Part shown: positions 28,754 to 48,508 of the stretch, in pieces
Layout of the letters: every line of letters begins with the position of its first letter
Numbering within the stretch: the first letter of the stretch is position 1
DNA from: an uncultured Actinomycetes bacterium
GTDB taxonomy: Bacteria > Actinomycetota > Thermoleophilia > Gaiellales > JAICJC01
Length of the DNA: 64,000 nucleotides
Assembly: GCA_963796875.1 (NCBI GenBank)
Contig: CAWCNL010000004.1
Location: 203,397-267,396, forward strand
Direction of reading: 5' to 3'
The notes under the pieces: generated by a model
Seen by the model: only the letters and a program-made list of their open reading frames with translations
Told to the model about the DNA's origin: nothing
Databases searched by the model: none
Made by a program: the position numbers and the translations under genes

Positions 28754-28865
28754 TTGCCCAAACCATATGCCCAAGATGGTGAGCCTGTCAAGGAGCGCAA
28801 AGCCATGAGAACTGGGGCTTGACGCTTGGAGGCCGTCCGACTACCGTTTGGGCAAATGACCAAGC
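28744..28865. promoter_or_regulatory. Divergent control region bounded by a perfect 20-bp inverted repeat (GTTTGGGCAAATGACCAAGC) that contains both start codons
   Basis: Arms at 28744-28763 (reverse complement) and 28846-28865, with an 82-bp spacer. Both genes begin ...FGQ-MTK from the same sequence. Confidence 0.6.
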
Positions 28866-29536
28866 CCGATAGACCGAGGCACGGGACCGCGACGGCGGCG
28901 GCGGCCGAAGGCTCGACGCGAGAGCGGATTCTGAAAGCGACGGTCGAACTGATGGCAGAGACCGGAATCGATCGGGTCCGCACGCGCGCCATCGCTGAGC
29001 GTGCGGGTGTCAACCCGGCGCTCGTGCACTACCACTTCGGATCGATTGCAGCGCTGGTCATGGAGGCCGCTGAATACGCCCTGCTCGAGGAACTGGGACC
29101 GTCGATCGACGTCTTCGTTTCGGCTGCCACGGTGCAGGAAGGAATCACAGCCATGCTCGAATGGATCGAGCAGAAGGCACAGCGAACCCCCGGCGCAACC
29201 ATCCTCGCCGAGGCGATGGTGAAGTCAACACGAGATCAGGCATTCCGGCGCTGGACGAAGCAAGCATCCTGGCGGTTCCGGACAATCATCCTCACGCGAC
29301 TCAAGACCGCACATGCTAACCACGAGCTCGACCCCGGTCTCGACATCGAAGCGACTGCTGTTCTGCTTGCCGCAGCGCTCGACGGACTCTTGTTCCACCG
29401 CCTGGTCGACCCCGGCCTCGACATCAGACAAACTGCCGAGCCCATCGCCCGGATGCTTGGAACTCCCGGACCTGCGGTCGCCGCCAATAACGACGCGACG
29501 AAACAACGGCGACGCGATGGTTCCTTCAAGCAGTGA
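28856..29536 (+). CDS. TetR/AcrR family transcriptional regulator
   Basis: TRERILKATVELMAETGIDRVRTRAIAERAGVNPALVHYHFGS (HTH). ORF track start 28826; ATG 28856 preferred. Confidence 0.85.
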   Translation: MTKPDRPRHGTATAAAAEGSTRERILKATVELMAETGIDRVRTRAIAERAGVNPALVHYHFGSIAALVMEAAEYALLEELGPSIDVFVSAATVQEGITAMLEWIEQKAQRTPGATILAEAMVKSTRDQAFRRWTKQASWRFRTIILTRLKTAHANHELDPGLDIEATAVLLAAALDGLLFHRLVDPGLDIRQTAEPIARMLGTPGPAVAANNDATKQRRRDGSFKQ

Positions 29537-29613
29537 GCCGATGACGCTGGCCAGGCCGCCGTCCAGTTGGTGCTCGACGAGGCGCTCACCGTCGTCGAAG
29601 GCCTCCAGCTCGA

Positions 29614-30243
29614 CTAGGAGTCGGCGGCGCTTCGTGCAAGGCGCGCAGTGATCGCCTTGCGCGCCCGGTTGATGGGCTGCACGGTGCCGTAGAGCAGGAA
29701 CGCCATGTTTGCCATCAAGAGGTGGCCGTTCAGCTCGAACACGAGTTGGTCGGGATCCTCGGCGATGAGCTGTCCGCTGTCCTGCGCTTCCCTGACCAGC
29801 TGCGTCAGGAGGTCTGTCCACCCGCGCTGGAACTCCGCGATCCGTTCTCGGACAGCGCCAGGATGCGTGTCGAATTCTGCGGCTGCCGAGGCGAAGAAGC
29901 AGCCGCCGGGGAACACACGTCGCTCGACGTGGGAGAGGAACTGCTCGCACAGCATCTTCAGCTTCTCAAGCGGGGTCTTCGCAGCGGCGGCGGGCGCGAT
30001 CACCTCGGCGTCGAAGATCGCGCTGGCGGTGTCGATCGCGGCCAACTGGAGTTCCTCTTTCGACCCGAAGTGGGCGTAGAGGCCGCTCTTGCTCATTCCG
30101 ATGTGGTCGGCAAGGCCAGCGATCGAGAGGCCCTCGAGACCCTCTACGGTGGCCAGTTTGGCCGCCGCGTCGAGGATCGTTTGCCGGCTTCGCTGACCGT
30201 CTGATCGAGGTTTCCGCTGTGGCTGCCGGGGTCTCGTCTGCAT
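29614..30243 (-). CDS. TetR/AcrR family transcriptional regulator
   Basis: SRQTILDAAAKLATVEGLEGLSIAGLADHIGMSKSGLYAHFGSKEELQ. Confidence 0.9.
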   Translation of the reverse strand: MQTRPRQPQRKPRSDGQRSRQTILDAAAKLATVEGLEGLSIAGLADHIGMSKSGLYAHFGSKEELQLAAIDTASAIFDAEVIAPAAAAKTPLEKLKMLCEQFLSHVERRVFPGGCFFASAAAEFDTHPGAVRERIAEFQRGWTDLLTQLVREAQDSGQLIAEDPDQLVFELNGHLLMANMAFLLYGTVQPINRARKAITARLARSAADS

Positions 30244-30260
30244 CTCATTTGCAAGTTAGC

Positions 30261-30301
30261 ACGATCGGTCGTATCATGCCAAATCGAAAACGACCGATCG
30301 T
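30261..30301. promoter_or_regulatory. Probable TetR operator: perfect 12-bp inverted repeat ACGATCGGTCGT-N17-ACGACCGATCGT
   Basis: Read directly in the 75-bp gap between TetR (minus) and the MFS pump (plus). GGAG RBS at 30310-30313. Confidence 0.65.
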
Positions 30302-30318
30302 ACTATTTAGGAGTCGAG

Positions 30319-31884
30319 ATGCGTACCACTGAAGAAGGTTCAACGACCCCCACGGCGCCGAGCGGGAGTACGGCCACGGGGCGCGGGAATTCGCTGCAGG
30401 AACGGCCGCTGCTTCGGACAGGACGCGGTGCGCTGACCCTGGCACTGCTCCTGCTGGTTCAGTTCCTGGATTTCCTCGATGTCTCCATCGTGAACGTGGC
30501 CCTGCCCTCGATCCGGCACGACCTCGGCTTCTCAGAGCAGAGCCTGCAGTGGGTCGTAAGCGGCTACGTGCTGACCTACGGAGGCCTGTTGCTGCTTGGT
30601 GGGCGTGCCGCTGATCTGGTTGGCCGGCGACGGATCCTTCTGATCGGACTGGCACTGTTCGCGCTCGCGTCGCTCGTCGGCGGCATTGCGCAGACCGAGC
30701 AGGTGCTCGTGGCCGCCAGGCTCGTGCAGGGGGCGGGCGCCGCGATGATGTCCCCGGCCGCTTTGTCGATATTGACAACGACCTTCACCGGCCGGCGCGA
30801 TCGCAACCTCGCCGTGGGCGCCTGGGCCGCCGTGCCGGGCCTGGCCGGCGCGGCGGGAGTCGTCCTGAGCGGCATCCTCACCCAGGGCCCCGGCTGGCGG
30901 TGGATCTTCTACCTCAACGTGCCGGTGGCGATGCTCGCGGCCATCGGAGCGCTGGTACTGCTCGATGGCGGAGCGCATCGGCACAAAGGACGCCGGTTCG
31001 ACGTTCCGGGGGCAGTGCTTGGCACGGCGGGCATGCTGCTGTTCATCTGCGGGGTCGTTCGCGCTCCAGACATCGGCTGGCGTGCCACCGAGACGATCGC
31101 CGCCCTCGTTCTTGCGGTGGCCCTGCTCGTCGCCTTCGTTGCCAACGAGAGTAAGGCACCGAACCCGCTCGTCCCATTTTCCCTCTTTCGCATCAAGGGA
31201 CTGGCGACCGCGAACGTGACCCAGCTGATCACGTTCAGCGGCGTCTACTCCATGTTCTTCTTCCTCAGCGTCTACATGCAGAACGTGCTCGGCTACTCGC
31301 CACGGGACACTGGCCTGGCCTACCTGCCACTCACCTTCGGCTTCATGGTGGCAGCGGGCATTGCGACTCCGCTCCTGCCGCGGATCGGCGCCATGCCGGT
31401 CATGGCCTCCGGAGCGATCATCGCTGCAGGCGGCCTCTACGTCCTCTCATGGGCGCCGGTGGACGGTGCATTCCTGGTCGATTTGCTTCCGGGGATCACA
31501 CTTGTCGCACTTGGTGCGGGTGCCGTCTTCACCGGCGCCACCGCCGCTGCCACCGAGGATGTCCCGCACGAGCATGCAGGTGTCGCTTCCGGGCTGCTGA
31601 ACGCCTCCATGCAGTTCGGCGGTGCTCTCGGGCTCGCCATCTTGTCTGCAGTGGCGACGAGTAGGACGAATGCCGAGCTGGAATCCGGTGCCAGCCTGCC
31701 CTTCGCCCTGACCGCCGGCTTCCAGCGCGCCTTCTTCATCGGCGCGCTCTTCCTGGTTGGCGCTGCCCTTATCGCCCTTCTCGCCGGCAACGCCCGCCGG
31801 GCCGCCACTGATCCGGCCCCCCGGCCGGGTCCATCGATGTCCCAGCGGGTGCCCGCGCCGATCGAACTGCCGGTCGACCGATGA
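30319..31884 (+). CDS. MFS transporter, DHA2 (EmrB/QacA, 14-TMS) drug:H+ antiporter type
   Basis: 521 aa. LDVSIVNVALPSI, GGRAADLVGRRR (motif A-like). Long enough for 14 TMS. Confidence 0.9.
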   Translation: MRTTEEGSTTPTAPSGSTATGRGNSLQERPLLRTGRGALTLALLLLVQFLDFLDVSIVNVALPSIRHDLGFSEQSLQWVVSGYVLTYGGLLLLGGRAADLVGRRRILLIGLALFALASLVGGIAQTEQVLVAARLVQGAGAAMMSPAALSILTTTFTGRRDRNLAVGAWAAVPGLAGAAGVVLSGILTQGPGWRWIFYLNVPVAMLAAIGALVLLDGGAHRHKGRRFDVPGAVLGTAGMLLFICGVVRAPDIGWRATETIAALVLAVALLVAFVANESKAPNPLVPFSLFRIKGLATANVTQLITFSGVYSMFFFLSVYMQNVLGYSPRDTGLAYLPLTFGFMVAAGIATPLLPRIGAMPVMASGAIIAAGGLYVLSWAPVDGAFLVDLLPGITLVALGAGAVFTGATAAATEDVPHEHAGVASGLLNASMQFGGALGLAILSAVATSRTNAELESGASLPFALTAGFQRAFFIGALFLVGAALIALLAGNARRAATDPAPRPGPSMSQRVPAPIELPVDR

Positions 31885-33957: not shown

Positions 33958-33991
33958 AGAAATAGGAAAGCCCTGTAAAACAGGGCTTTCC
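33958..33991 (-). terminator. Rho-independent terminator of rnpB (GGAAAGCCCUG-UUUUA-CAGGGCUUUCC then UAUUUCU)
   Basis: Perfect 11-bp stem at 33965-33991 read directly. A U-rich tail follows on the minus strand. Confidence 0.75.
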
Positions 33992-33992
33992 G

Positions 33993-34332
33993 TTAGCCGA
34001 TCTGTAAGCGGGATTCTGTCGTGGACAGCCATCCATCTGGGCCGGCCGTTGCCGTCCGGCTCTTGCCGCCTACCTGGAGCTCGGCGGGCCGCGTCATCGC
34101 TCCTGTTTGACGTTGCACCGGGTGGGGCTTGCCTAGCCATCCACATCTCTGCGGATGCTGGTGGGCTCTTACTCCACCGTTTCACCCTTACCGCTCGCTG
34201 ATGCGAGCGGCGGTTTGCTTTCTGTTGCGCTATCCATCGGGTTTCCCCGTCCGGGCGTTACCCGGCACCCTGCCCTTCGGTGTCCCGACTTTCCTCGACG
34301 GCCGAAGCCGCCGCGGCTGTCCGATCGGCGAT
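33993..34332 (-). ncRNA. rnpB: RNase P RNA, bacterial type A
   Basis: The minus strand reads GAGGAAAGUCGGGAC, GGGCAGGGUGCCGGGUAACGCCCGG, GCAACAGAAAGCAAACCGCC, GGUAAGGGUGAAACGGUGGAGUAAGAGCCCACC, CCACGACAGAAUCCCGCUUACAGAUCGGC. P1 pairs GCCGAUC/GAUCGGC and P2 pairs GGACAGCC/GGCUGUCC. Confidence 0.92.
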
Positions 34333-35853: not shown

Positions 35854-36090
35854 TCAGGATGCGAGCGACAACGCCACTGGCTCGTCGTGCGCCTCGGTGA
35901 GTACCGAACCGCACTCGGTACATGTGAGCTCGATGATCCCCCGCTCCACCTCGCACGCCTCCGCCTGAGCACCGCACACTGCACAGGCGGGGCCGTGCTC
36001 ACGAGACGCATCGCGGGCAGCCGCCAGTGCGCCGAGAATCACATCCTCGAGCCGCGGCTCAACGGGAAACAAGGGGACAAGCTGGCTCAC
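35854..36090 (-). CDS. Small zinc-ribbon protein (78 aa), translationally coupled to lexA
   Basis: CAVCG...14 aa...CTECG. Its GTG start overlaps the lexA TGA (ctGTGAgcc at 36087-36090). Confidence 0.55.
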   Translation of the reverse strand: MSQLVPLFPVEPRLEDVILGALAAARDASREHGPACAVCGAQAEACEVERGIIELTCTECGSVLTEAHDEPVALSLAS

Positions 36091-36716
36091 AGCCGCCTCA
36101 TGACCGCCTTGACCGAACCCAGGATCGACACCTGCTCCGGGTAGGTCGGCTCCATCGTGTCGTTCTCGGGCTGCAGCTTGACGCGGCCGCCCTCGCGGAA
36201 GAACCGCTTGACCGTCGCTCCCTCCTCGTCAACGAGCGCCACGACGATCTCACCGTTGCGCGCGTCCTGCTGCTTCTGCACGACCACCATGTCGCCCGGC
36301 AGGATGCCGGCGTTGATCATGCTCTCGCCGCGGACCGTGAGGATGAAATCTGCTGAGTCGGTGAGCTGATCGGGAATCGCGACATAGTCATCGATGCGAT
36401 CCTCGGCGATCACCGGAGAACCTGCGGCGACCTCGCCGACCAGCGGAAGCCGGGTCGTGCGGTTGTAGACTGGCGCGGCGGCCACCGCGGCCGAACGACT
36501 CCGTCCCCCTTCGATCACCTCGAGGGCGCGCGGCTTAGTGGGATCGCGCCGGATCAGACCCGCGCTCTCGAGCTTTGCGAGATGCGCGTGTACCGTCGAC
36601 GGGGACGTGAGCCCGACCGCCTGGCCAATCTCGCGCACCGTCGGTGGATAGCCATGCTTTTCCACATGGGCGTTTACGAACTCGATGATCTCGCGCTGTC
36701 GGTCGGTCAGATCCAC
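36087..36716 (-). CDS. lexA: LexA repressor
   Basis: LTDRQREIIEFVNAHVEKHGYPPTVREIGQAVGLTSPSTVHAHLAKLE (wHTH), VRGESMINAGI (Ser nucleophile), TVKRF (Lys). GTG start at 36716; the ORF track start at 36965 is too far upstream. Confidence 0.95.
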   Translation of the reverse strand: MDLTDRQREIIEFVNAHVEKHGYPPTVREIGQAVGLTSPSTVHAHLAKLESAGLIRRDPTKPRALEVIEGGRSRSAAVAAAPVYNRTTRLPLVGEVAAGSPVIAEDRIDDYVAIPDQLTDSADFILTVRGESMINAGILPGDMVVVQKQQDARNGEIVVALVDEEGATVKRFFREGGRVKLQPENDTMEPTYPEQVSILGSVKAVMRRL

Positions 36717-36732: not shown

Positions 36733-36748
36733 TCGAACGTGTGTTCGG
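36733..36748. promoter_or_regulatory. SOS box upstream of lexA (TCGAAC-GTGT-GTTCGG)
   Basis: 15/16 match to the actinobacterial/Gram-positive LexA box TCGAAC-N4-GTTCGA, 17 nt upstream of the lexA start. Confidence 0.75.
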
Positions 36749-36822
36749 AGTGAAGGATGCCACGGGCGTCGGACGGACGCAAACTCGGCGGGAAAGGAGG
36801 TAGATGGAAAGGAGAAAGGGGG

Positions 36823-37078
36823 CTACAAGGGTAGTAACGTCTGGCGCAGGGCCTGGAAAACTGCGGGTTTGGGGGTAGCAGGTGTCGGGCGGTGGTTCCG
36901 GGCGGTGGCAGGTCGAAGCCGGGCGACTGCTTGGGACGTGATGAGTGCGCCGGGGCGTATGTCAACCGGCGCGAAGTCGAACACGCCCCCAGGGTCGGGC
37001 GATCCGGTGTGCTCCCCTCCCGAGCAGCCTACTACCGCGATGGAAGCCAACAAAACCGCCGATACCCAAATCCTCGGC
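36823..37078 (-). CDS. Short lipoprotein-like ORF or fragment (85 aa)
   Basis: MPRIWVSAVLLASIAVVGCSGG lipobox. The C-terminal third is encoded by degenerate R49 repeat sequence, so it may be a remnant. Confidence 0.3.
36861..36930 (+). repeat. R49 interspersed repeat, two degenerate or truncated copies
   Basis: ctgcgggtttgggggtagcagg and tgtcgggcggtggttccgggcggtggcaggtcgaagccgggcgactgc. Confidence 0.6.
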
Positions 37079-37148
37079 ATACCCCAGGGTACGTTCCTTA
37101 GCGGTCTCCCCGTCCCCAGGCACCGCACATTGCTGCACTCTGCCCGAA

Positions 37149-37248
37149 GTCGCTACTGGTTCGCGGCCGGTGGCAGGCCGTGGCTGAAGCTTGACCACCT
37201 GGTGCTGCGGCTGGTTCGGGGGCGGTGACGGGCGATGGCTCGACCGTG
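37149..37248 (+). repeat. R49 repeat, two tandem copies
   Basis: gtcgctactggttcgcggccggtggcaggccgtggctgaagcttgacc followed by gctgcggctggttcgggggcggtgacgggcgatggctcgaccgtg. Confidence 0.85.
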
Positions 37249-37502
37249 CTCAAGCGCGAGCTGGTTGATCCCGATCAGGTTTCGCGTGGCTGCCTCGATA
37301 GCGCAGCCGTAGCTTGCCCTTGACCGACATATCAAACTTGCTATAAATAGCATATGAGCTATATCTCATCCCGGTCGCAAGTTCGGATAACGCGATGACC
37401 GCCATCACCTATCTGGAGCTCGCCGGGTCGGCCATTGCGATCGGCTGGCTCGCGTGGCGGGCTCGAATCAACTCCGCCAAGTTGCCTGCCGATACGGTCG
37501 TG

Positions 37503-38471
37503 ATGAGGCCGCTGCGATGTCTGGTGGTTGGGATACTGGTCGTGGCTGCGGCTGGTTGTGGAAACACGCCGAGCAGTCCGTCCGCTGCGCAGTGCATGCA
37601 GGCATGGAACAAGGGGAACAGTTCGACCAATGGGCTGGTCGGCCGAGACGTCTGGGCTGTCGGGTATTCGAACACCAACGGCGCTGATGAGCCCAGCACG
37701 GTTGGCTGCTTCATGACGTTCGCTCTCGGGGGCGGACGGTACGTGATGTTCGAGCCCGACAGAGACGAAAGCTACGACGAGAAGTCTTCAGCAAAGCAGA
37801 TCGCCGCGACCGGGCTCGACTTTCAACCCGACACCACCGTCAGCCCGGTCATCGTGCTGACCACTGCCCAACTCGCGGCAGTGAATCAGGGCGCGGCCCC
37901 CATCCAGCCCTACCCTGGCGGTACCCCCACCGGATGTCAGGACGACGACGGGACGGTGCACCCGAGCGGCGGTTGCTCACCGCATGACCCGAGCGTTACT
38001 TCCGACGGGATCCAGACACAAATCGCGGACACTTCCAGGGACACGATGATCGCCACGATCCACTGGGGGCCGATCTGGTGGCTAGGCCCCACCCTCGAGG
38101 GAGCGCCGGTCGTGGGCGGGGGTGGAGGGAAACTGGTGCAGGGAGACAACGGGCGACGGGTCTGGTACCAAGTTCAATCCGGTGGGCACTCATGGCAGAT
38201 CGGCGTAATCACGCTCGATCGCGCCCACCCGACAATCCCAAAGTGCCCATTCTGGAACCCCATCTACTACGCACCAATCTGCCAGGGCACAACCCAGCTC
38301 GGCCAACTGATCACCACCGCCAATCCAGCCGGACGGCTGATCGCCGTCTTCGCCACCCCCGCAAACCCAGACGACAGCACACGCCTTCCACCCACACTCG
38401 TCGCTCAAATCCGCACATCCCTGACCCAGGCCACACCAACCGCCGTGATCGATATCGGACACGCCGACTGA
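37503..38471 (+). CDS. Lipoprotein, hypothetical (322 aa)
   Basis: Internal ATG of ORF 37395..38471: MRPLRCLVVGILVVAAAGCGNT lipobox. Preceded by an AT-rich region with small palindromes (TGCTAT-AA-ATAGCA; ATGAG-N6-CTCAT). Confidence 0.65.
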   Translation: MRPLRCLVVGILVVAAAGCGNTPSSPSAAQCMQAWNKGNSSTNGLVGRDVWAVGYSNTNGADEPSTVGCFMTFALGGGRYVMFEPDRDESYDEKSSAKQIAATGLDFQPDTTVSPVIVLTTAQLAAVNQGAAPIQPYPGGTPTGCQDDDGTVHPSGGCSPHDPSVTSDGIQTQIADTSRDTMIATIHWGPIWWLGPTLEGAPVVGGGGGKLVQGDNGRRVWYQVQSGGHSWQIGVITLDRAHPTIPKCPFWNPIYYAPICQGTTQLGQLITTANPAGRLIAVFATPANPDDSTRLPPTLVAQIRTSLTQATPTAVIDIGHAD

Positions 38472-38508
38472 GTCCAAGCACCCAGAGGTCGTAACGGAGC
38501 ATTACCCC

Positions 38509-38575
38509 GGCGTTGCGACTGGTTCGGGGGCGGTGGCCGACAGAAGCCGAGCGTGGCCGTGGCGTTGCGGGCGTG
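38509..38575 (+). repeat. R49 repeat, one copy plus the start of a second
   Basis: ggcgttgcgactggttcgggggcggtggccgacagaagccgagcgtggcc then gtggcgttgcgggcgtg. Confidence 0.85.
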
Positions 38576-38696
38576 AACTCAGCCAGCGGCCCGCCTCTCC
38601 ATCTACCTCCTTTGCAAACTCGGCGGGGGAAGGCTGTTGGAGGGGGTTCCTGAGGTGCAAGTCGTAACGCGTCGACCAGCCGGTCAGTGGTGGCGG

Positions 38697-41600
38697 TTAC
38701 GCCGAGGTCGCGTCTTGGGTGGTTCGAGGAGAGGCAGCGAGAAGCTGGTAGAGGGTCGCGCCGGTCTCAGCGGCGAACTCGCTGACGCCGTCGGCGTGTC
38801 GGTTGGCGTCGCTGGTACGGCCTTCTGCTGCCGCTTGGCGAGCGGCGAGCAGGTGGGCGTCGGCTGTTAGTGGGTGGCTGCCGACTTCTGCGTAGAGAGT
38901 GGCGGCTTCTGCGTATCGCATGTCTGCGGTTAGCAGGAGAGGCCGTCGCCAGCGAGAGGCCTCGGGGAGGAGGACTGCCGCGCCGCGGAGATCGTTGTGG
39001 CGGTCTAGCCAGGCGAGTGCCAGAGCGAGTTCGCAGAGGGTGATCGCAGTGTTGAACAGGCCGTGGCGGCGATGCCAGTTCGCGAGGTATCTGTCACATA
39101 CTCGCCGGGCTGTTGCGAGATCGGGTTGGAAGGTGTGTATTCGTCCCTCGAGTGCAAGGCCCTGGAACAGCAGGTAGTCGTTCTCACTGGCTGTTGCGAA
39201 CTCGGTGATCACCTTCGCGTCATCGAGAGCGTCTGTCGCGGCGCCGCGGGCGAGGCTGGTTCGCCCGCGCGTGAGGCGTATGTTGGCGTCGGTGTAGCCA
39301 TTGGTTGTTTGGATCTGCGAGATGAGAGTAAGAGCTGTGGCCCAGTCGCCGGCGTGATACAGCTGGTAGGCGCGTTGGCAGGCGATGTCTTCCAGGAAGA
39401 ACGTCTCGCCGTATCGAGAGGCCCAATCGGCAGCCGTGGCGAGCGCGTCATCAGCGGCGGCGAAGTCGCCGAGCGCCGTCATCGTTTCGGACAGGTTGCT
39501 GTACACCATGGTCGTGTAGCTATCAGAATGGGCCGCGAAGGTCTCCGCGGCGTGGCGCATGTCGGCGATGCCCGCATCGATCTCGCCGTGCTCCACTCGG
39601 GCCATGCCCCGGACTTCGAAGAGACGGGCTTGGCCGACCGCGAGCCCGGCCTGGCCCGAAGCAGCAACCATCTGCTCCGCGAGAATCGTGAGCGCCTCGT
39701 CGGTCGCTCCGGTCAGATAGAGGCGGAACGCGCGGTGGGCCGCGATCTTGCACGTGATCTCGCTGGTGGGGACATGGGCGGCGTACTCCGCCGCCTTGGC
39801 CTGGTGCGCGGCGGCATTGTCGGCGTCCCCCTCGTGGTCCTTGTACCAGTTCCCGAGCATGAGCTCGACGTGCGCGGCCGCCTCCCACGCGTAAACACCC
39901 AGCTGGGCGTCGATGACCTCGCGGAAGAACTCGACGTCAACGGTGTCGCTGCCGTTGTAGAGCGCGCGGGCCTCGCCGAAGAGCAGTGCGGGTCGCTGGG
40001 GATGGTCTGCTGGGGTGAGTTCGATCGCGGCGTGGTAGTGACGCGCTGCCGCTGACCATGCATAGACAGCTGACGCCTGCTCGGCTGCCTCCGCAAATGC
40101 GGCTCTGGCCCTGGCTGTGAGTGGGGTGGTGTCCTCGCCGAGCAGCCGGCGGAGTTGCAGCGCTTGGTGGTAGTGGTCGGCGAGTAGCTCGGCCTTGTCC
40201 TCTCGGTGCGCGGCGTGCTGTTCGATCCAGGCCGCGGCTGCTTCGTGTTTTTGGGCGCGTTGAGCGCGACGGATCTGTGAGTAGGCGACGTCTCTTGTGA
40301 GCGCGTGGCCGAACGTGAACTCGGTCTCGCCGTCGAGTGAGCTTCGCCGTTCGCGCACCACCAGCTGCTTTCGTTCCAGAGCGTGGAGGAGTTCCTCGGC
40401 GTCCCAGGTGCTCCGCTTGGTCAGCGCACATACAGCTCCGATCCACGCGGTTCGTCCGATCACTGCGGCGTCCTGTATGAGCGACTTCTGGTCGGGGGAG
40501 AGCGCGTCGAGGCGGGCTGCGATGATGCCCTGGATCGTCTCTGGTAGGTCGGTGATCTGGCCCGCGAGGTCCCATCCTGTGTGGTGGTGGACGAGAAGGT
40601 CGCGGTCTTGCAGCATCCGCACGTATTCCTGGGCGTACAGTGGATTGCCGTCGGCGTGTTGCACGAGCGCGTGCTGGATCTCGGCCGGGAGCAGTGTCTG
40701 CTGGAGCAGCCCTCCCACCAGCCGGGCGGTGTCCTGATCGGAGAGTGGTGTGAGCATCAAAGTGTGCGCGTTGGTCTTGCCGCCGGCCCAGCCTGGGCGT
40801 CGCTCCAAGAGCTCGGGCCGCGCCGTGCACACGATGAGTAGCGGCACCGCGCCCCCGCGGTCAGCCATGAGGTCGATGAAATCGAGCAGCGCGTCGTCGG
40901 CCCAGTGGATGTCCTCAAACGCAAGCACCGTCGGCCCGGCCTCCGCCAGAGCCTCCAAGAACCGGCGCCACGCTGCGAACGCCTCGCCCCGACCACCCTC
41001 CGACCCGGTGGTCACGGCCTCGAGGCCTACGAGCGGGCCAAGATGGCGCGCCACCCATTCCGTGTCGCGCTGCGCCAAGCAGATCGCATCGACCGCTTCG
41101 TGGAGCTTTGCTCTAGCCACATCGGCCGTGTCGGACTCCAGGATCCCAGCCTGCAGCTTGATCATCTCTCCCAGCGCCCAAAACGCGATCCCCTCTCCGT
41201 AGGCCAGCGACCGGCCCCGCCGCCAGGTGACCAGCTCGGGCACCTCGCCGACATACGCATACAGCTCGTCAACAAGTCGCGATTTACCGATCCCCGGCTC
41301 GCCGATCACCGAAACGAGCTGCGTCGACGATTCGTCGCGGGAGCGCTCCCACGTTTCGACCAGTAGTCCTCGCTCACGGCCACGGCCGACCAGCGGCAGC
41401 CGGTCGCGATACTGCTCGGGAACGATCGAACGTGGCGCTCGCGCAACCCATACCCGGACAGGTTCGGACTTCCCTTTCGCCGCGACCGGTTCAGCGTCGT
41501 CATACTGGATCGCACGGCTCGTCGAACGATACGTCGAAGCGTCCACCAGCACCCTGTCGGTGGGCGCGGCGGCCTCAAGCCGCGCCGCCGTGTTTACGAC

Positions 41601-42062
41601 ATCCCCGATCGCATCGGGGTGGCCGTCGGCCGGGAGCGTCACGACCACCTCTCCGGTCGTGATCCCGACGCGCACGTGTAGGTCACCTCTCAGATCTCCA
41701 ACCCGGTTGCAGATCGCGAGGCCACAACGCACCGCTCGTTCGGGGTCGTCCTCGTGAGCCACGAAAGCCCCGAAAAGCGCCATCACCCCGTCGCCGGTGA
41801 ACTTCGCGACCAACCCGCCGGTGCGCTCCACCTCCTCGCGCAGCACCGCGAAGTACGGATCGAGAAACCCCTCGACGTCCTCCACGTCCAGGCTCTCCGA
41901 CCGCCGCGTGAACCCCGCCAGGTCGGCAAACAGCGTAGTGACAACGCGACGCTCGCGACGCTCCGTAACCTCACTGTCAAGACGCGTGCCGCACTCCGAA
42001 CAGAACTTCGCCGCCGCTGGAACAGCGACCCCACACTGTGGACACGACGCCGGCGCCATCAC
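38697..42062 (-). CDS. Zinc-ribbon / class III adenylyl-guanylyl cyclase / STAND (AAA_16-type) ATPase / TPR-repeat protein, paralog A (1121 aa)
   Basis: CPQCG..CSECG. Cyclase motifs FADLAGFT, KFTGDGVMALFG, GDVVNTAARLE. Walker A GEPGIGKSRLV. Walker B VLAFEDIHWADDALLDF. Long helical-repeat C-terminal half. No HTH seen. Confidence 0.9.
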   Translation of the reverse strand: MMAPASCPQCGVAVPAAAKFCSECGTRLDSEVTERRERRVVTTLFADLAGFTRRSESLDVEDVEGFLDPYFAVLREEVERTGGLVAKFTGDGVMALFGAFVAHEDDPERAVRCGLAICNRVGDLRGDLHVRVGITTGEVVVTLPADGHPDAIGDVVNTAARLEAAAPTDRVLVDASTYRSTSRAIQYDDAEPVAAKGKSEPVRVWVARAPRSIVPEQYRDRLPLVGRGRERGLLVETWERSRDESSTQLVSVIGEPGIGKSRLVDELYAYVGEVPELVTWRRGRSLAYGEGIAFWALGEMIKLQAGILESDTADVARAKLHEAVDAICLAQRDTEWVARHLGPLVGLEAVTTGSEGGRGEAFAAWRRFLEALAEAGPTVLAFEDIHWADDALLDFIDLMADRGGAVPLLIVCTARPELLERRPGWAGGKTNAHTLMLTPLSDQDTARLVGGLLQQTLLPAEIQHALVQHADGNPLYAQEYVRMLQDRDLLVHHHTGWDLAGQITDLPETIQGIIAARLDALSPDQKSLIQDAAVIGRTAWIGAVCALTKRSTWDAEELLHALERKQLVVRERRSSLDGETEFTFGHALTRDVAYSQIRRAQRAQKHEAAAAWIEQHAAHREDKAELLADHYHQALQLRRLLGEDTTPLTARARAAFAEAAEQASAVYAWSAAARHYHAAIELTPADHPQRPALLFGEARALYNGSDTVDVEFFREVIDAQLGVYAWEAAAHVELMLGNWYKDHEGDADNAAAHQAKAAEYAAHVPTSEITCKIAAHRAFRLYLTGATDEALTILAEQMVAASGQAGLAVGQARLFEVRGMARVEHGEIDAGIADMRHAAETFAAHSDSYTTMVYSNLSETMTALGDFAAADDALATAADWASRYGETFFLEDIACQRAYQLYHAGDWATALTLISQIQTTNGYTDANIRLTRGRTSLARGAATDALDDAKVITEFATASENDYLLFQGLALEGRIHTFQPDLATARRVCDRYLANWHRRHGLFNTAITLCELALALAWLDRHNDLRGAAVLLPEASRWRRPLLLTADMRYAEAATLYAEVGSHPLTADAHLLAARQAAAEGRTSDANRHADGVSEFAAETGATLYQLLAASPRTTQDATSA

Positions 42063-42230
42063 GACCCCGAGCGTACCTTGCCACCTGCGATCTGAACAAC
42101 CAATCGGGTCGTGCTTTGCTCTTTTGGGCGGTAGCCTGCATCGGCGTGTGGAAGCTGGGCAAGTGGATCCCCTGAGAGCCTCGGTACGTAGGTCAGAATC
42201 GCTGAGTGTGGCTGCGTTGCAGTGTCCGAT

Positions 42231-43883
42231 CTATGGAGTGGCGGGTCCCGTGAGTTCGTCGAGTCGTTGGTCGATGATGCTGGCGACTGACGCGCGGGTG
42301 CCGACGTGCCCTGTGAGGGCGAGCAGGAATGGTTCGCGTTCGAGGGCGTAGAGGTCGGCGTCGGTGTGAGCGATGACTGTGGCTGTTCGCGGCATGTTGC
42401 GGATCAGAGCGATTTCGCCCACGCCTTCGGCGCGGCTTCGGGCTACGACGACAGCGTCGTTCTTCAAGACATCGAGCTGGCCGCGCGCGATCGCGTAGTA
42501 ACGGTCGCCGGGATCGCCCTCGCGGATGACGACCGTTCCTGCCGGCACTTGCAGAGGCGTCAGTGATTTGGCGAGTGTCTCCAGCGCCGGTGCGGGGAGT
42601 GCCTCGAACAATGGGATCGATCGCAACAGGCGAAGCTCGACCACGGGCACCGTGGCCGCGGCGTCCAACGCACGGAGTCGGGGGGCGAGCACCGCAACTG
42701 TGAGGACCACGATCAACGCTGTCCCGACCATCGCGCCGTTGACACCCCAGAGGCCGACCAGGATTGGCACGATCGTCACGCCTATCGCGAGGCCAGCGCA
42801 GATTAGGCCTTCCAGCATCCCGAACACCTGCGCCAACACGCGGGGTGGTGCGGTGCGCTGCAGCAGTGTACGGCCGGTCACGTCGAACACGCCCCGGCTG
42901 AGGCCCGCCACGGTAAACAGGATCAGCGCACTTGCGACCGTCGTGTAGCCGGCCAGCAGCAGAAGTGCGACCGGCCCAGCCAGCCCCGCGGCGATGAGCA
43001 TCGGTGCCTGGCGGCGCCCGCCCACCATCAGGCCGGTGATCGCGATTGCAAGCAATCCGCCCGCTCCGGCGGCGGCCGTCAGATAGCCCGCGCCGCCCTG
43101 CCCCATCCCCAACTCGCCGACTGCGAGCACAACGTAGATCAGATCCAGCGCGCCCACCAGCACGTACTGTGCGCCGAGCACTGCGACGAGGGTGAGCACT
43201 GCTGGGTTATCGGCCAGAAGCTGAAGACCGCCAACCGCGTCCCGCCCACCGGAATCGCTACCGGAAGACTCCACGTACGGGCGCGGCCCCGGGATCGTGG
43301 CGATCAGGAGCGACGCCACAAGGGCGAGGACAACCATTGCACTGACGGCTGCGGCTGGTCCGCTTGAGTTCAGCAGCACGGCGACGCCGATCGGTGTGAC
43401 CAGTGTGGCCGCGCTCTCCAGCCAACCCTGCCCTGCGTTGGCTGCCGCGAGTTCTGCGGGTGATGTCACCACCGATGGCAACAACACGGCCTGCGCCGGG
43501 CGCGGTACACAGATCGCGAGGTTGACAATCGGAGCCAGTGCGAACACGAGGAACCGCGGCGCGCCCGTCGCCATCAACAGGGCCACACCGGCCATCGACA
43601 ACCCCAGGGCCACATACCCCCACAGCAACACGCGGCCGGGTCGGTACCGGTCGGCCAGCGCACCGAGCCGAGTGGCGAGCAGAGCGCCGGGAACAAGCTG
43701 CACGAGCGCCATCACGCTCGCAGCCCTGGCACCCCCGCCGCTGCCATATGCATAGACGATCAGCACGACCCAGACACCCATGATCGCTCCGACGAATGCC
43801 GTGTAGGCGATTCCCACCCGCAGTAGCGTCCGGTTCCGGGCCGCCGAACCGAACACGCCGGCCGAGGCTCGCAGGCGATCCAT
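42231..43883 (-). CDS. MFS transporter fused to a C-terminal cyclic-nucleotide-binding (CAP/cNMP) domain
   Basis: 550 aa. About 400 aa of TM helices, then LRSIPLFEALPAPALETLA...IREGDPGDRYYAI...GVGEIALIRNMPRTATVIA (FGE-L/I-AL ... RTA phosphate-binding cassette). Confidence 0.9.
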   Translation of the reverse strand: MDRLRASAGVFGSAARNRTLLRVGIAYTAFVGAIMGVWVVLIVYAYGSGGGARAASVMALVQLVPGALLATRLGALADRYRPGRVLLWGYVALGLSMAGVALLMATGAPRFLVFALAPIVNLAICVPRPAQAVLLPSVVTSPAELAAANAGQGWLESAATLVTPIGVAVLLNSSGPAAAVSAMVVLALVASLLIATIPGPRPYVESSGSDSGGRDAVGGLQLLADNPAVLTLVAVLGAQYVLVGALDLIYVVLAVGELGMGQGGAGYLTAAAGAGGLLAIAITGLMVGGRRQAPMLIAAGLAGPVALLLLAGYTTVASALILFTVAGLSRGVFDVTGRTLLQRTAPPRVLAQVFGMLEGLICAGLAIGVTIVPILVGLWGVNGAMVGTALIVVLTVAVLAPRLRALDAAATVPVVELRLLRSIPLFEALPAPALETLAKSLTPLQVPAGTVVIREGDPGDRYYAIARGQLDVLKNDAVVVARSRAEGVGEIALIRNMPRTATVIAHTDADLYALEREPFLLALTGHVGTRASVASIIDQRLDELTGPATP

Positions 43884-43996
43884 CGGCCAAGCGTATACAG
43901 GGACGCGACTCTCCCGCCCGAGCAGCCGCTGAGTGCCCGCGTGCTGCCTGAGGGTGGGCCTAGAGATCGGCGAGGCGGGCGGGGTCGCTAGCTCCT

Positions 43997-46900
43997 ATGA
44001 TTGGCGATTCAGTGATCTGCCCGAACTGCTCAACGATTGCCGAGGGCGCGAAGTTCTGCCCTGAATGTGGAACCGCGATGGGCGTAACGCCTGTGTCGGA
44101 GCGCCGCGAACGGCGCGTCGTCTCGGTGCTGTTCGCCGATCTGGTCGGTTTCACCAGTCGGTCGGAGCGACTGGACGTCGAGGATGTCGAGGGCTTCCTG
44201 CAGCCGTACTTCCAACTGCTCGAAGCTGCAGTCCAGAGCACCGGGGGCGTGGTGGCGAAGTTCACTGGTGATGGCGTGATGGCGATGTTCGGTGCCGACG
44301 TTGCGCATGAGGACGATCCCGAACGGGCGGTGAGAGCCGGACTCGCGATATGCGAGGGAATCGCTGATCTGGATGACGGTGTTCTTAATGTGCGGGTCGG
44401 CGTCACGACTGGAGAGGTTCTGGTCACCCATGACGCACACGGACGCATGGATGCCGTCGGTGATGTTGCGAACACGGCCGCCAGGCTGGAATCGGCGGCA
44501 CCGGTCGGCCGCATGCTGGTCGATACCCACACGTACCGCTCGACAGAACTGGCGATTCTTTACGACCAAAGCGACGGTGTCGTCGCTAAGGGCAAGTCCG
44601 GCAAGATCGAGGCTTGGATAGCCGTCCAGGCGCGATCAATCGTGCCGGAGCAGACGAGGGCGTCCGATCTGCCGCTGGTTGGGCGCGAGGCGGAGTGCGT
44701 CATGCTGCGCGGAGCACTTGACCGCAGCCTTCGAGATCCGGCTACGCAGCTGATCACCGTGGTCGGACCACCGGGTATCGGCAAAAGCAGACTCGTCGAA
44801 GACCTGGGCGATTATGTTGAGGACGTCCAGGAGCTGATCACCTGGCGCCGCGGCCGCTCACTCTCGTACGGCGAGGGGATCGCCTTCTGGGCGCTGGGAG
44901 AGATGATCAAGTTGCAGGCCGGGATTCTCGAGTCCGACGATGGCCAGGTTGCCGACGAAAAGTTGAGGGTGGCGGTGGTGAATCTGATCGTCGTCGACGA
45001 GGGTGATCGGGATTGGGTGATCCGCCACTTGAGACCGCTGGTAGGGTTGGATCGCACGGTCTCGGCCGAGGCGAATACTGCTGAGGCGTTCGCCGCCTGG
45101 CGGCGGTTCTTCGAGGCGATGGCCGAGGAAGGGCCGACGGTGCTCGTGTTCGAGGACATCCACTGGGCCGACGATGCGCTGCTCGATTTCATCGACCTGC
45201 TAGTCAGCCGTGCTGGTGCCGTGCCGCTGCTGATCGTGTGCACCGCCCGGCCAGAGCTCTTTGAACGTCGACCGGCCTGGGGAGGCGGCAAGCCCAACGC
45301 GAGCACGATTTCGTTGACGGCGCTGAGTGGCGAGGACACGGCACGACTGGTCGCCGAACTGCTTAATCAGGCGTTGCTTCCAGTGGATGTCCAGCAGGCG
45401 CTGCTTGATCGGGCGGGTGGAAACCCGTTGTACGCGCAGGAGTATGTTCGTATGCTGCAAGACCGGGCTCTCCTGCGACGGGGGGAAGCCGGCTGGAGCC
45501 TCGAGGGCGAGATCGACGGCCTGCCCGAGTCTGTTCACGGAATCATCGCCGCCCGCCTGGACACCCTGTCACACGACGAGAAACAACTGATCCACGACGC
45601 AGCCGTGATGGGCCGAACCGCGTGGCTCGGGGCCGTGTGTGCGCTCACGCCCCGCCCATCCGCCAGTGCAGATGATCTACTCCACGCGCTGGAACAAAAA
45701 CAGCTCGTCCAGCGGGTACGCCGGCCGACGATCACTGGAGAGACCGAGTTTCGGTTCGCCCACGCGCTCACCGTCGAAGTCGCCTACGCACAGATCCGTC
45801 GAGCCGACCGCGCTCAAAAACACGAGGCCGCAGCGGCGTGGATCGAGCGACTGGCCGAAGGGCGGGAGGACAAAGCAGAGCTGCTCGCTCACCACTACGC
45901 AACTGCGCTCGAGCTGCGCCGCCAGATAGGTGAAACTCCCGACGACCTGCTCAGGCGTGCGGCAAGCGCCCTAGCAGAAGCCGGGCGCCAATCGGCTGCT
46001 CTGAACGCGTACACTCGCGCTGTCGGGTATTTCGACGCCGCACTCGACGCCCTCCCCGACGACGACCCAACACGGGCAGATCTGCTCTATGACCGTGCCG
46101 TGGCCCAGTCGCGTGGCGGCGCGGTCACTGACGCCGAACTCGACCAGGCGCTCGAGGCGCAGTTGGCCGCTCAGTGCTGGGAGGGAGCCGCCCGGGTGGA
46201 GGTATTGATCGCGCATCGCGCCACGCGAGAGGACGGTGACCTCAAACGTGGACTCGATCACCTTGATAATGCGAGTCGCTACGCGCAGCGCGTGCCCTAC
46301 TCGCACACCGCCAGTGAGGTCGCCCACACACGGCTGCGCGCGCTCCTCAGTGAAGTGGGTAACGAGCACGACCTGGTCGGGTTAGCGCGAGAGGGGCTTC
46401 AACGTGCCGAGGCTGCAGGCGACGAGGTGGGTGCGGCGTTGCTGCTGTCCGACCTCGCCGACGCACGGTTCGAAGCCGGCGATCTCGACGGGATCGACGA
46501 CGCTGAGAAGTCGGCCGACATGCTCGACCGGCTGTCCGACCGGGCCGCCGCAAACGCTTACAACTCGCTCGCGTGGAACTATTTCAACGTCGGTCGGCTG
46601 GATGATTCGCTGGCCGCGCTGGGCCGGGCGCGCGACTGGGCCGGACGCATGGGAGAGCCGTACTTGCTTGCGCAGGTTGAAGGAAGCGGCGCAGAAATCA
46701 ATTATTACGCCGGTTCGTGGCAGTCCGCCAGGATTATCACGGAGCGCTATCTCGATGATCCAGCTCGATTTCATGCCATGGCGGCACGCAACATCCGCGG
46801 GCGACTCGCGCTCGCCGCCGGTGACATGGACACCGCGCGCGCAGACGCGAACGACAACATCGAGTTCGGTGAGTCGGCTGACAACCACGAGTTCCTCTGT

Positions 46901-47353: not shown

Positions 47354-47389
47354 AGCGTTGACTGCACGACCGGTGAGCTAACGTGCGCG

Positions 47390-47414
47390 ACCCCGGGGTG
47401 GACCGCTCCGGGGT
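47390..47414 (+). terminator. GC hairpin after paralog B (ACCCCGG-N11-CCGGGGT); no clear T-tract
   Basis: Read directly 37 nt after the stop. Confidence 0.3.
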
Positions 47415-47480
47415 GAGAATGGATGATCGCCAGACCCGTGGCACGTCGCGACGAGGGGTCGGATCAGCTTCGGGGTCTGA

Positions 47481-47666: not shown

Positions 47667-47670
47667 GAAA

Positions 47671-47805: not shown

Positions 47806-47846
47806 CCGGGCCACCCCAGCACCGCCACACCGATTCGATTCGGTGA

Positions 47847-48344: not shown

Positions 48345-48508
48345 ATGACCACTACGCGCTGAGCGGCCGTCTGCGTCTCGTCGCGCACTCGCCGCGTCGC
48401 CGTCTGCTGAGCTAATCGACATAGACTGAGAGTAGATCCGCAGAACGCCCCGGTTATTATTTTCGCCTCGGACGACGCGGCTGTCCGGCCCGAGCCGCAA
48501 CCCTCGGG

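What the first reader, a model, noticed from the sequence alone, without database searches (positions are those of the whole stretch)
36779..38627. 1.8-kb segment with transposon-like ends (19-bp TIRs plus perfect 14-bp target-site-like duplication) but no transposase
Read directly:
- GCAAACTCGGCGGG (36779-36792) is immediately followed by AAAGGAGGTAGATGGAAAG (36793-36811).
- At the other end, CTCTCCATCTACCTCCTTT (38595-38613) is the reverse complement of the same 19-mer with one mismatch. It is immediately followed by the identical GCAAACTCGGCGGG (38614-38627).

DR-TIR...TIR-DR is the classic footprint of a transposition event.

- The interior holds a lipoprotein fragment, an AT-rich promoter-like patch, a 322-aa lipoprotein gene and several R49 repeats, but no recognisable transposase. 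It would therefore be a cargo-carrying non-autonomous element mobilised in trans.
- The TIR itself is a consensus Shine-Dalgarno plus ATG (AAGGAGG-TAG-ATG), and both ends open tiny MERR... ORFs.
- Removing the segment would join the lexA upstream region directly to the 3' flank of cyclase-STAND paralog A.
Basis: seen in the sequence. Interest (0 to 1): 0.65.

Follow-up and report, generated by a model that had tools for sequence, protein, structure and literature searches.

The report
Transposase-less lipoprotein cassette beside lexA
A 1.8-kb stretch just upstream of the lexA promoter carries one rare lipoprotein gene and is bracketed by repeats that look like the scar of a DNA insertion, but no enzyme, second full copy or empty site was found, so it is most likely a one-off fossil insertion of modest interest.

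Summary
GCAAACTCGGCGGG occurs at 36779-36792 and 38614-38627. It directly abuts a 20-nt inverted repeat (36793-36812 / 38594-38613, 19 of 20).

The interior holds a real, very rare lipoprotein gene with its own promoter-like patch, a truncated lipoprotein gene and the host's own intergenic repeats. It encodes no recombinase, and none was found in about 58 ORFs across the window.

The transposon reading is only partly supported:
- The inverted repeat is absent from 185,579 species genomes, JGI metagenomes, IMG/VR and PLSDB. The source genome itself is not in those collections.
- No empty site was found. Removing the segment does not recreate the lexA upstream region of relatives, three of which share a conserved motif that the window lacks.
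- An independent Logan contig joins the same 14-mer and a diverged left end to a different flank. The 14-mer is therefore not a random target duplication.

Best reading (about 0.5): a single insertion of a cassette moved by an enzyme encoded elsewhere, target-specific or carrying the 14-mer as a core, in a hypervariable region upstream of lexA. Main rival (about 0.25): a scar of local rearrangement. Interest is modest.

The parts
36779..36792 (+). Left copy of the 14-bp direct repeat GCAAACTCGGCGGG. It lies in the native lexA upstream region. On the minus strand its GTTTGC supplies the candidate -35 (TTGCGT) of the lexA promoter.
   Evidence: Relatives have GCAAACTTCGCGTG (L014, 11/14) and GCAAGCTGGCGGCG (L017) at the same offset from lexA. 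The promoter assignment is inference from conservation.
36793..36812 (+). Left terminal inverted repeat AAAGGAGGTAGATGGAAAGG. It is purine-rich, and AAAGGAGGT is a 9-nt match to a Shine-Dalgarno sequence.
   Evidence: Homology to relatives ends at 36785 (L014), 36792 (L017) and 36800 (L016).
36822..36856 (+). Small hairpin repeat module (GCTAC...GTARC followed by GTCTGGCGCAGGGCC), also present at 49456-49492.
36877..36925 (+). Degenerate copy of the R49 REP-like host repeat.
   Evidence: (family D5: 36900-36925 against 38528-38553).
36930..37080 (-). Truncated lipoprotein gene. It has a signal peptide and lipobox (MPRIWVSAVLLASIAVVGC...) and then runs into repeat DNA.
   Evidence: ORF 36823..37128(-); no Pfam hit. 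The truncation is inference.
37143..37242 (+). Two tandem R49 repeats.
   Evidence: (family D1).
37320..37347 (+). Promoter-like patch TTGACC-16 nt-TATAAA with GCTAT/ATAGC palindromes, upstream of the lipoprotein gene.
   Evidence: Read. The consensus scan did not call it because its last base is A. A similar ATAGC-rich patch lies upstream of the homologue in L002.
37503..38471 (+). Cargo gene for a 322-aa lipoprotein (lipobox LVVAAAGC). The database copy was called from the ATG at 37395 (358 aa).
   Evidence: P0001 is 100% identical. It is 48% identical to P0002 over its full length, with conserved cysteines. Only 17 relatives were found among 1.84 billion representative proteins. No Pfam domain.
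38506..38550 (+). R49 repeat downstream of the lipoprotein gene.
38594..38613 (-). Right terminal inverted repeat (AAAGGAGGTAGATGGAGAGG on the minus strand; 19/20 to the left arm).
   Evidence: Identical in the independent contig L001.
38614..38627 (+). Right copy of the 14-bp direct repeat. It is followed by the 69-nt 3' flank of cyclase-STAND gene A.
36087..36716 (-). lexA (209 aa, GTG start), the left neighbour. The SOS box TCGAAC-GTGT-GTTCGG lies at 36733-36748.
   Evidence: Pfam LexA_DNA_bind and Peptidase_S24. P0003 is 100% identical. The SOS box was read and is conserved in all relatives.
38697..42062 (-). Adenylate cyclase / AAA_16 STAND gene, paralogue A, the right neighbour. It is transcribed towards lexA.
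   Evidence: Pfam. The closest other protein is only 72% identical.

Best explanation
The segment 36793-38613 is a piece of DNA that was inserted as a unit immediately upstream of the lexA core promoter. It is a cassette without any recombinase of its own. It carries one intact, promoter-equipped gene for a rare lipoprotein, a truncated lipoprotein gene and host-type intergenic repeats.

Proposed mechanism (inferred, not shown):
1. An enzyme encoded elsewhere binds the two 20-bp terminal inverted repeats.
2. It cuts the target on the two strands 14 nt apart.
3. It joins the ends, and gap repair copies the 14-nt segment. That leaves two perfect copies that abut the inverted repeats.

The same 14-mer is also joined to a diverged copy of the left end in a second context. 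The insertion is therefore target-specific, or the element carries the 14-mer as a recombination core, as in an attL/attR pair. It is not a random target-site duplication.

The copy seen here is probably an immobile fossil in a region upstream of lexA that differs in every relative examined.

What is shown: the repeat geometry, the lack of any recombinase, the reality of the cargo gene, the break of synteny at the 14-mer, and the second context of the left end. What is inferred: that the bracket arose by enzymatic insertion, and which kind of enzyme did it.
For: - The bracket is exact and highly non-random: 14/14 direct repeats abutting 19/20 inverted repeats.
- Homology to the closest lexA loci stops at the repeat boundary: L014 (94.7% nt) at 36785, L017 exactly at 36792, L016 at 36800.
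- The left 14-mer sits in native lexA upstream DNA, as expected for a duplicated target.
- The right junction and the whole interior are reproduced at 100% in an independently assembled contig, L001.
- A second, 7%-diverged copy of the 14-mer plus left end exists in another flank. At least the end region is therefore a dispersed sequence.
- The interior is a self-contained unit. The lipoprotein gene is conserved at 48% identity over its full length with its only close homologue, which sits in an unrelated neighbourhood (SecG/AIRS). Both have a similar ATAGC-rich upstream patch.
- Enzymes that make 14-15-bp duplications and choose a specific target are documented: the casposase (PMC5137440).
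- Transposase-less cassettes bounded by inverted repeats and moved in trans are documented: mobile insertion cassettes (MICs) and Tn3-derived miniature elements (TIMEs) (PMC4133298, PMC4337579).
Against: - No other copy of the inverted repeat, and no partner carrying a transposase, integrase or Cas1, was found. This covers the window (about 58 ORFs), 185,579 species genomes, JGI metagenomes, IMG/VR and PLSDB.
- No empty site was found. Precise removal does not recreate the sequence of any relative. The conserved motif that follows the 14-mer equivalent in L014, L015 and L017 is missing from the window. At least one further event is needed.
- L016 has GAAAGGAGG at exactly the same offset as the start of the left inverted repeat. 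The outer 9 nt may therefore predate the insertion.
- The interior is built largely of the host lineage's own repeats (R49 and the hairpin module). Its composition is only mildly atypical: cargo-gene GC3 is within the host range, but the segment's tetranucleotide distance is at the 94th percentile. There is no clear sign of foreign origin.
- A 14-bp duplication is unusually long for ordinary insertion sequences (from memory of IS family tables).
Confidence: 0.5

Rival explanations
1. It is a rearrangement scar rather than a discrete mobile element. The region upstream of lexA is a hot spot where blocks of DNA are swapped, deleted and joined by short homologies. The two 33-bp junctions are by-products of such joins, for example microhomology at CGCAAACT, or capture of a fragment at a staggered break repaired by end joining.
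For: - Every relative has a different neighbour upstream of lexA: an ECF sigma factor in L014, a CarboxypepD_reg protein in L015, a P-loop STAND gene in L016 and a membrane protein in L017.
- The window has about 15 kb (36793-51788) between lexA and a gene that lies 44 nt from the lexA-homologous block (about 60 nt from the 14-mer equivalent) in L017.
- The ancestral motif is lost.
- The interior is made of host repeats and a truncated gene.
- No enzyme and no second full copy were found.
- Only GCAAACT of the 14-mer is strongly conserved in relatives, which fits a microhomology join.
Against: - No simple non-enzymatic process gives a perfect 14-bp direct repeat that abuts a 20-bp inverted repeat at both ends.
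- The standard inversion, tandem-duplication and staggered-break inversion models predict other arrangements (reasoned through here, not computed).
- The 14-mer plus left end recurs in a second context.
Confidence: 0.25
2. It is exactly: an ordinary IS-derived mobile insertion cassette that landed at a random site and made a 14-bp target-site duplication.
For: Same geometry as above. The cassette concept is established (PMC4133298, PMC4337579).
Against: - The identical 14-mer flanks a second, diverged left end in another flank. A random target would not repeat.
- No cognate IS was found anywhere searched.
- Excision does not restore the ancestral site.
Confidence: 0.12
3. It is an invertible (phase-variable) segment. 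The 20-bp inverted repeats are recombination sites for an invertase that flips the promoter-carrying 1.8-kb block.
For: Inverted repeats bracket a block that contains a promoter-like patch.
Against: - No invertase or recombinase is encoded in the window.
- The only independent assembly has the same orientation.
- Inversion does not explain the flanking direct repeats.
- Flipping would expose nothing but 24- and 7-codon ORFs.
Confidence: 0.03
4. It is a miniature, non-autonomous derivative of a casposon, moved by a Cas1-type integrase encoded elsewhere in the genome.
For: - Terminal inverted repeats plus a 14-bp duplication match the 14-15-bp yardstick of the casposase.
- The casposase is also target-specific and integrates artificial mini-casposons bounded only by the terminal repeats (PMC5137440).
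- Casposons occur in Actinobacteria (Streptomyces albulus; PMC4046053).
Against: - No Cas1, PolB or HNH gene is in the window.
- Reported casposon terminal repeats are 25-602 nt (PMC4046053); these are 20 nt.
- The rest of the genome could not be searched.
Confidence: 0.03
5. It is chance or an assembly artefact.
For: - The source is a metagenome-assembled contig.
- Several genes in the window look split, so indel errors are possible.
- The lexA-side junction is not confirmed by the second assembly.
Against: - Chance is excluded by the shuffles.
- The interior, the right junction and the 14-mer/left-repeat junction are reproduced in Logan contig L001.
- Repeats of 14 and 20 nt are too short to cause joins in de Bruijn graphs (general knowledge).
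Confidence: 0.02

Closest known systems
Mobile insertion cassettes (MICs) and Tn3-derived inverted-repeat miniature elements (TIMEs): transposase-less units bounded by IS/Tn-type inverted repeats and moved in trans (PMC4133298, PMC4337579, PMC5444012)
   Same: Short terminal inverted repeats, flanking direct repeats, a passenger gene and no transposase inside.
   Different: - MICs and TIMEs share their ends with an identifiable IS or Tn that supplies the transposase, and they occur in several copies. Here no cognate element and no second full copy was found.
- The duplication is 14 bp, against 5 bp for Tn3-type and mostly 2-12 bp for IS-type elements (from memory).
- The same 14-mer recurs at a second locus.
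Integrated elements flanked by attL/attR that have lost their integrase, such as the cis-mobilisable elements (CIMEs) described in streptococci (from memory; not checked in the literature here)
   Same: A direct repeat of a short core on both sides, inverted sequences just inside the core, no recombinase, and location in a variable island at a fixed chromosomal site.
   Different: - Known cores usually lie in tRNA or conserved gene ends and are intact in unoccupied relatives. Here relatives match only 9-11 of 14.
- A 14-bp spacer between 20-bp inverted arms is not the geometry of tyrosine-recombinase core sites.
- No integrase-bearing partner is known.
Casposons and artificial mini-casposons (PMC4046053, PMC5137440)
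   Same: Terminal inverted repeats, a 14-15-bp duplication, sequence-specific target choice, and terminal repeats that are sufficient for integration in vitro.
   Different: No Cas1 or PolB was found. The terminal repeats are shorter than reported. No natural non-autonomous casposon is known to me. The host lineage is not a known carrier.
REP/BIME-type intergenic repeats
   Same: The interior and surroundings are full of a 45-nt REP-like family (R49) and a hairpin module.
   Different: The 14-mer and the 20-mer are not part of those families. They occur only at the two ends of this segment within the 64 kb.

Membership tests
IS-derived non-autonomous element (MIC / MITE-like) | Terminal inverted repeats at both ends | tested here: met
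   20 nt, 19/20 complementary.
IS-derived non-autonomous element (MIC / MITE-like) | Direct target-site duplication abutting the inverted repeats | tested here: met
   14/14, no spacer. The length is atypical.
IS-derived non-autonomous element (MIC / MITE-like) | Autonomous relative with the same ends and a transposase | tested here: not met
   None in the window, GTDB species genomes, JGI metagenomes, IMG/VR or PLSDB. The rest of the source genome could not be searched.
IS-derived non-autonomous element (MIC / MITE-like) | Several dispersed copies with different flanking duplications | tested here: not met
   The only extra evidence is a second left end in L001, and it carries the same 14-mer.
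IS-derived non-autonomous element (MIC / MITE-like) | Empty site in relatives that equals the flanks joined with one copy of the duplication | tested here: not met
   The lexA loci L014-L017 do not match the joined flanks. The ancestral motif is absent from the window. The cyclase side has no close orthologue.
Integrated element with att core (integrase lost) | Identical core sequence as a direct repeat at both ends | tested here: met
Integrated element with att core (integrase lost) | The core is present at the unoccupied site of relatives | tested here: inconclusive
   11/14 in L014, 9/14 (12 with a gap) in L017, and fewer in L015 and L016. Only GCAAAC(T) is well conserved.
Integrated element with att core (integrase lost) | Cognate integrase-bearing element using the same core | tested here: not met
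   Nothing found.
Integrated element with att core (integrase lost) | Excised circle junction (inverted repeat, core, inverted repeat) detectable | not testable with these tools
   This needs raw reads. The odd flank of L001 is not such a junction (10/35 identity).
Casposon-derived element | Terminal inverted repeats plus a duplication of about 14-15 bp | tested here: met
   The yardstick is from PMC5137440.
Casposon-derived element | Cas1-type integrase (and PolB) in the element or genome | tested here: not met
   Not in the 64-kb window. The remainder of the genome is not testable.
Invertible promoter segment (inverton) | Both orientations present in a population, and an invertase nearby | tested here: not met
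   The orientation is the same in the window and in L001. No recombinase domain was found. A read-level test was not possible.

The most novel reading that the evidence does not exclude
The bracket is the product of a target-specific integrase with a 14-15-nt cutting stagger, the hallmark of Cas1-type casposases. On this reading the segment would be the first natural non-autonomous 'mini-casposon', or the footprint of an undescribed integrase family. It would home to the sequence just upstream of the lexA -35 element in an uncultured actinobacterial lineage, and related elements would have hit the same spot in L016.
Probability: 0.05. Interest if true: 0.75.

Novelty: new member of a known kind. 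Interest (0 to 1): 0.3.

Why it matters
If the bracket is a true insertion footprint, it marks an unknown recombinase in a poorly sampled soil actinobacterial lineage. LexA's nearest named relatives are Gaiellales MAGs at 77% identity. That enzyme would make 14-bp duplications and choose a specific target next to the promoter of the SOS repressor gene.

It would also show how orphan surface lipoprotein genes are shuffled into the variable island upstream of lexA.

As it stands, it is a single, apparently dead copy with no enzyme attached. Its main practical value is as a search seed: the 20-mer and the 14-mer can be looked for in the full genome and its reads.

Tried and rejected
- **Exact protein look-ups.** Look-ups of my own translations of the lipoprotein and lexA genes found nothing, probably because of start-codon differences. 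The database proteins P0001 and P0003 did work.
- **Pattern scans.** I scanned for AAGGAGGTAGATGGARAGG in genome contigs, metagenome contigs and viral contigs, and for the 14-mer plus inverted repeat in viral contigs. Only chance hits turned up, in unrelated and mostly low-GC contexts.
- **PLSDB.** A blastn search with the whole segment found no match.
- **Empty site from the cyclase side.** The closest proteins are 72% and 70% identical, and their contigs have no lexA.
- **More contigs for the left junction.** The neighbouring 78-aa and 89-aa ORFs returned only a fragment without the junction (L036) and L001 again.
- **Circle or tandem junction.** I tested whether the odd flank of L001 is a diverged copy of the right end. 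It is not: 10/35 identity, the median for random 35-mers.
- **Degenerate third inverted repeat.** The sequence after the right 14-mer gives 9/20 at best with a shift, which is not convincing.
- **Further degenerate copies.** No further copy of the 20-mer (5 or fewer mismatches) was found in the window or in nine related loci. The only 14-mer hits at 3 or fewer mismatches were scattered weak ones, the best being GCAAAGCCGGCGGG at 34488 (2 mismatches), and none lies next to the 20-mer.
- **RNA explanations.** Rfam at gathering and permissive thresholds found nothing relevant. Folding of the left end and the right junction was no better than shuffles.
- **Resemblance to the 16S rRNA 3' end.** CCTCCTTT simply reflects Shine-Dalgarno complementarity. 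Similarity does not extend further (read from the sequence).
- **Structure of the lipoprotein.** The AlphaFold2 model has mean pLDDT 38 and is unusable, so no fold search was run.
- **PafBC (RecA-NDp) promoter.** I tried to identify the conserved lexA-upstream motif of relatives as a PafBC promoter. The papers I read did not print the consensus, and the spacing I recalled does not fit, so I make no claim.
Full report
**1. The observation**

- GCAAACTCGGCGGG lies at 36779-36792 and again at 38614-38627.
- The first copy is followed directly by AAAGGAGGTAGATGGAAAGG (36793-36812).
- The second copy is preceded directly by the reverse complement of that 20-mer with one mismatch (38594-38613).

The 19-mer allowing three mismatches occurs nowhere else in the 64 kb, and none of 100 shuffles gave any match. 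The 14-mer has no other close copy. A script that looks for inverted repeats directly flanked by direct repeats scored this bracket 30 exact bases, against a maximum of 20 in 30 random windows.

**2. What lies inside and around**

*Left neighbour.* lexA occupies 36087-36716 on the minus strand, with LexA_DNA_bind and Peptidase_S24 domains. Its SOS box TCGAAC-GTGT-GTTCGG lies at 36733-36748.

*Right neighbour.* A 1121-aa adenylate cyclase / AAA_16 STAND gene occupies 38697-42062 on the minus strand.

*Interior, left to right:*
- a hairpin repeat module also found at 49456-49492;
- a degenerate R49 repeat;
- a truncated lipoprotein gene on the minus strand;
- two tandem R49 repeats;
- a promoter-like patch, TTGACC-16 nt-TATAAA, at 37320-37347;
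- a 322-aa lipoprotein gene, 37503-38471;
- another R49 repeat.

*R49 repeats.* R49 is a 45-nt REP-like family with about 20 copies in the window. It also occurs in relatives.

*The lipoprotein gene.* It is a real gene. It is 48% identical over its full length to its only close homologue, with conserved cysteines. The family is tiny: 17 representatives among 1.84 billion proteins. It has no Pfam domain. A structure prediction was unusable.

*Composition.* The cargo gene's base composition is host-like (GC3 0.74, within the range of neighbouring genes). The segment as a whole is only mildly atypical, with a tetranucleotide distance at the 94th percentile of windows.

*The terminal ORFs.* The ORFs opened by the inverted repeats are 24 and 7 codons long. 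The ATG follows GGAGG by only 3 nt, so the 'SD plus ATG' is not a credible start.

**3. Search for an enzyme and for other copies**

Pfam scans of about 58 ORFs over the whole window found no transposase, integrase, invertase or Cas1.

The inverted-repeat pattern gave:
- seven single chance hits in one genome per 185,579 species;
- fifteen chance hits in JGI metagenomes, none with extended similarity or the 14-mer;
- nothing in IMG/VR.

The whole segment has no match in PLSDB. The source genome is not in those DNA collections. These results therefore say that the ends are not widespread. They do not say that the ends are unique in their own genome.

**4. Relatives of the lexA locus**

Four lexA loci were recovered.

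| Locus | LexA identity | Neighbour upstream of lexA | Homology to the window ends at |
|---|---|---|---|
| L014 | 99% aa, 94.7% nt | divergent ECF sigma factor gene | 36785 |
| L017 | 93% aa | membrane-protein gene | exactly 36792, the last base of the 14-mer |
| L016 | 90% aa | open P-loop STAND reading frame | 36800 |
| L015 | 83% aa | CarboxypepD_reg protein | about 36802 |

- In L017, 44 nt after the break comes a membrane-protein gene whose homologue in the window lies at 51789-52031. The window therefore has about 15 kb where L017 has about 60 nt of intergenic DNA between the 14-mer equivalent and that gene.
- L014, L015 and L017 all carry a conserved motif, GGTTATAGGGATTGCACSAACCCGG, directly after their equivalent of the 14-mer. 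This motif is absent from the entire window.
- Deleting the segment and one 14-mer therefore does not recreate any known relative.
- L016 lacks the motif too. At exactly the same offset it has GAAAGGAGG, the first nine bases of the window's boundary sequence, followed by the STAND reading frame.
- The region from GTTTGC to the SOS box is conserved in all loci. This suggests that the 14-mer contains the -35 element of the lexA promoter (inference).
- On the cyclase side, no orthologue closer than 72% exists, and the contigs examined have no lexA.

**5. A second context for the left end**

Logan contig L001 (run ERR11594399) is identical to the window from 36861 to 41805. That span includes the interior, the right inverted repeat, the right 14-mer and most of the cyclase gene.

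Its first 116 nt differ in three ways:
- an unrelated 35-nt flank;
- then the identical 14-mer;
- then the left inverted repeat and left end with five differences in 68 nt.

The flank is not related to the inner side of the right end (10/35). It is therefore not a circle or tandem junction.

The simplest reading is that at least two diverged copies of '14-mer plus left end' exist in this population. One is next to lexA and one is elsewhere. A random target duplication would not be the same at two loci.

**6. Interpretation**

The exact direct-repeat / inverted-repeat geometry is what a staggered-cut insertion leaves, or what recombination through a short core leaves. I could not derive it from inversion, tandem-duplication or staggered-break inversion models.

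I therefore favour a single insertion of an enzyme-less cassette, moved in trans (about 0.5). The 14-mer would be either a specifically chosen target or a core carried by the element.

Against this stand four points:
- no partner element and no second full copy were found;
- no empty site was found;
- a further event is needed to explain the lost ancestral motif;
- the nine bases shared with L016 suggest that the boundary may be older than the cassette.

The main rival is a scar of repeated local rearrangement in what is clearly a hypervariable spot upstream of lexA (about 0.25). An invertible segment, a mini-casposon and an artefact each get a few per cent.

**7. Comparison with known systems**

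- **Mobile insertion cassettes and TIMEs** (PMC4133298, PMC4337579) are the closest in architecture. The defining link to a cognate transposon was tested and not met.
- **Integrase-less att-flanked elements** fit the repeated core, but not the core geometry or its conservation in relatives.
- **Casposons** match the 14-15-bp duplication and the target specificity (PMC5137440, PMC4046053). The defining Cas1 was not found in the window.

I file the segment as a probable new member of the general kind 'non-autonomous inserted cassette', family unassigned.

**8. Verdict**

It is a single, apparently inactive copy of modest interest (0.3). The decisive data are the rest of the source genome and the raw reads, neither of which these tools can reach.

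Noticed in passing
L001:1-116 against window 36745-36860: An independent Logan contig carries the same 14-mer and a 7%-diverged left end (one indel and four substitutions in 68 nt) joined to an unrelated 35-nt flank ending in a run of nine C. It is then 100% identical to the window for 4.9 kb. This implies a second copy of the end region, or a strain-level rearrangement with a breakpoint about 70 nt inside the segment.
   Followed up: partly
L014:1456-1483, L017 about 253-292, L015 about 9880-9912; absent from the window: A motif of about 27 nt (TGTCCGGGTTCGTGCAATCCCTATAACC in lexA orientation) is conserved directly upstream of the lexA core promoter in three relatives, down to 71% nt identity. 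It may be a second promoter or a regulator site. It is missing in the window and in L016, where the boundary sequence begins GAAAGGAGG instead.
   Followed up: partly
window 36793-51788: About 15 kb separates lexA from the membrane-protein gene at 51793-52323. In relative L017 the two homologous blocks are 44 nt apart. Each of the four relatives has a different gene upstream of lexA. This is a hypervariable island without any recombinase gene. It holds cyclase-STAND paralogues, an MFS-cNMP gene, small lipoprotein genes and many repeats.
   Followed up: partly
window 47700-51500, 56067-61375; also 37143-37242 and 38506-38550; L014:1365-1438; L015:9234-9284: There is a REP-like 45-nt repeat family (consensus about GCGTTGCGGCTGGTTCGGGGGCGGTGGCAGGCGATGGCCGAGCGT). 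It has about 20 copies, often in tandem with a period of about 55-60 nt, confined to intergenic DNA, and it is shared with related genomes.
   Followed up: partly
window 36822-36856 and 49456-49492: A small hairpin module (7-bp stem, 7-nt loop, then GTCTGGCGCAGGGCC) is present at both places. The stem-loop is flipped in the second copy.
   Followed up: no
window 52649-55913 (minus strand): A third cyclase-STAND paralogue, 74% nt identical to part of paralogue A, is split over at least three ORFs. It is either a decaying pseudogene or has frameshift errors from the assembly. Several other genes in the window also match only part of their Pfam models, for example Voltage_CLC at 16474-18033 and Inositol_P at 2183-3790.
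   Followed up: no
window 33989-34332 (minus strand): A bacterial class A RNase P RNA gene (278.7 bits) lies 1.7 kb downstream of lexA.
   Followed up: no
window 37320-37372 and L002:3590-3640: The lipoprotein gene and its 46%-identical homologue in an unrelated neighbourhood both have an AT-rich upstream patch with TTGAC and repeated ATAGC/GCTAT half-sites. This may be a conserved promoter and operator that travels with the gene.
   Followed up: no
window 26475-30954: A second, much weaker bracket has an 8-bp direct repeat (GAGCGCTG) abutting a 12-bp inverted repeat, around 4.4 kb of ABC-transporter and TetR genes. Its score equals the best seen in random sequences, so it is probably chance.
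   Followed up: partly
window 47850-47864 (minus strand): An 11-nt exact match to the 14-mer (AACTCGGCGGG) forms the last codons and stop of the lipoprotein-like ORF 47847-48500. This is marginal statistically and probably a coincidence.
   Followed up: no
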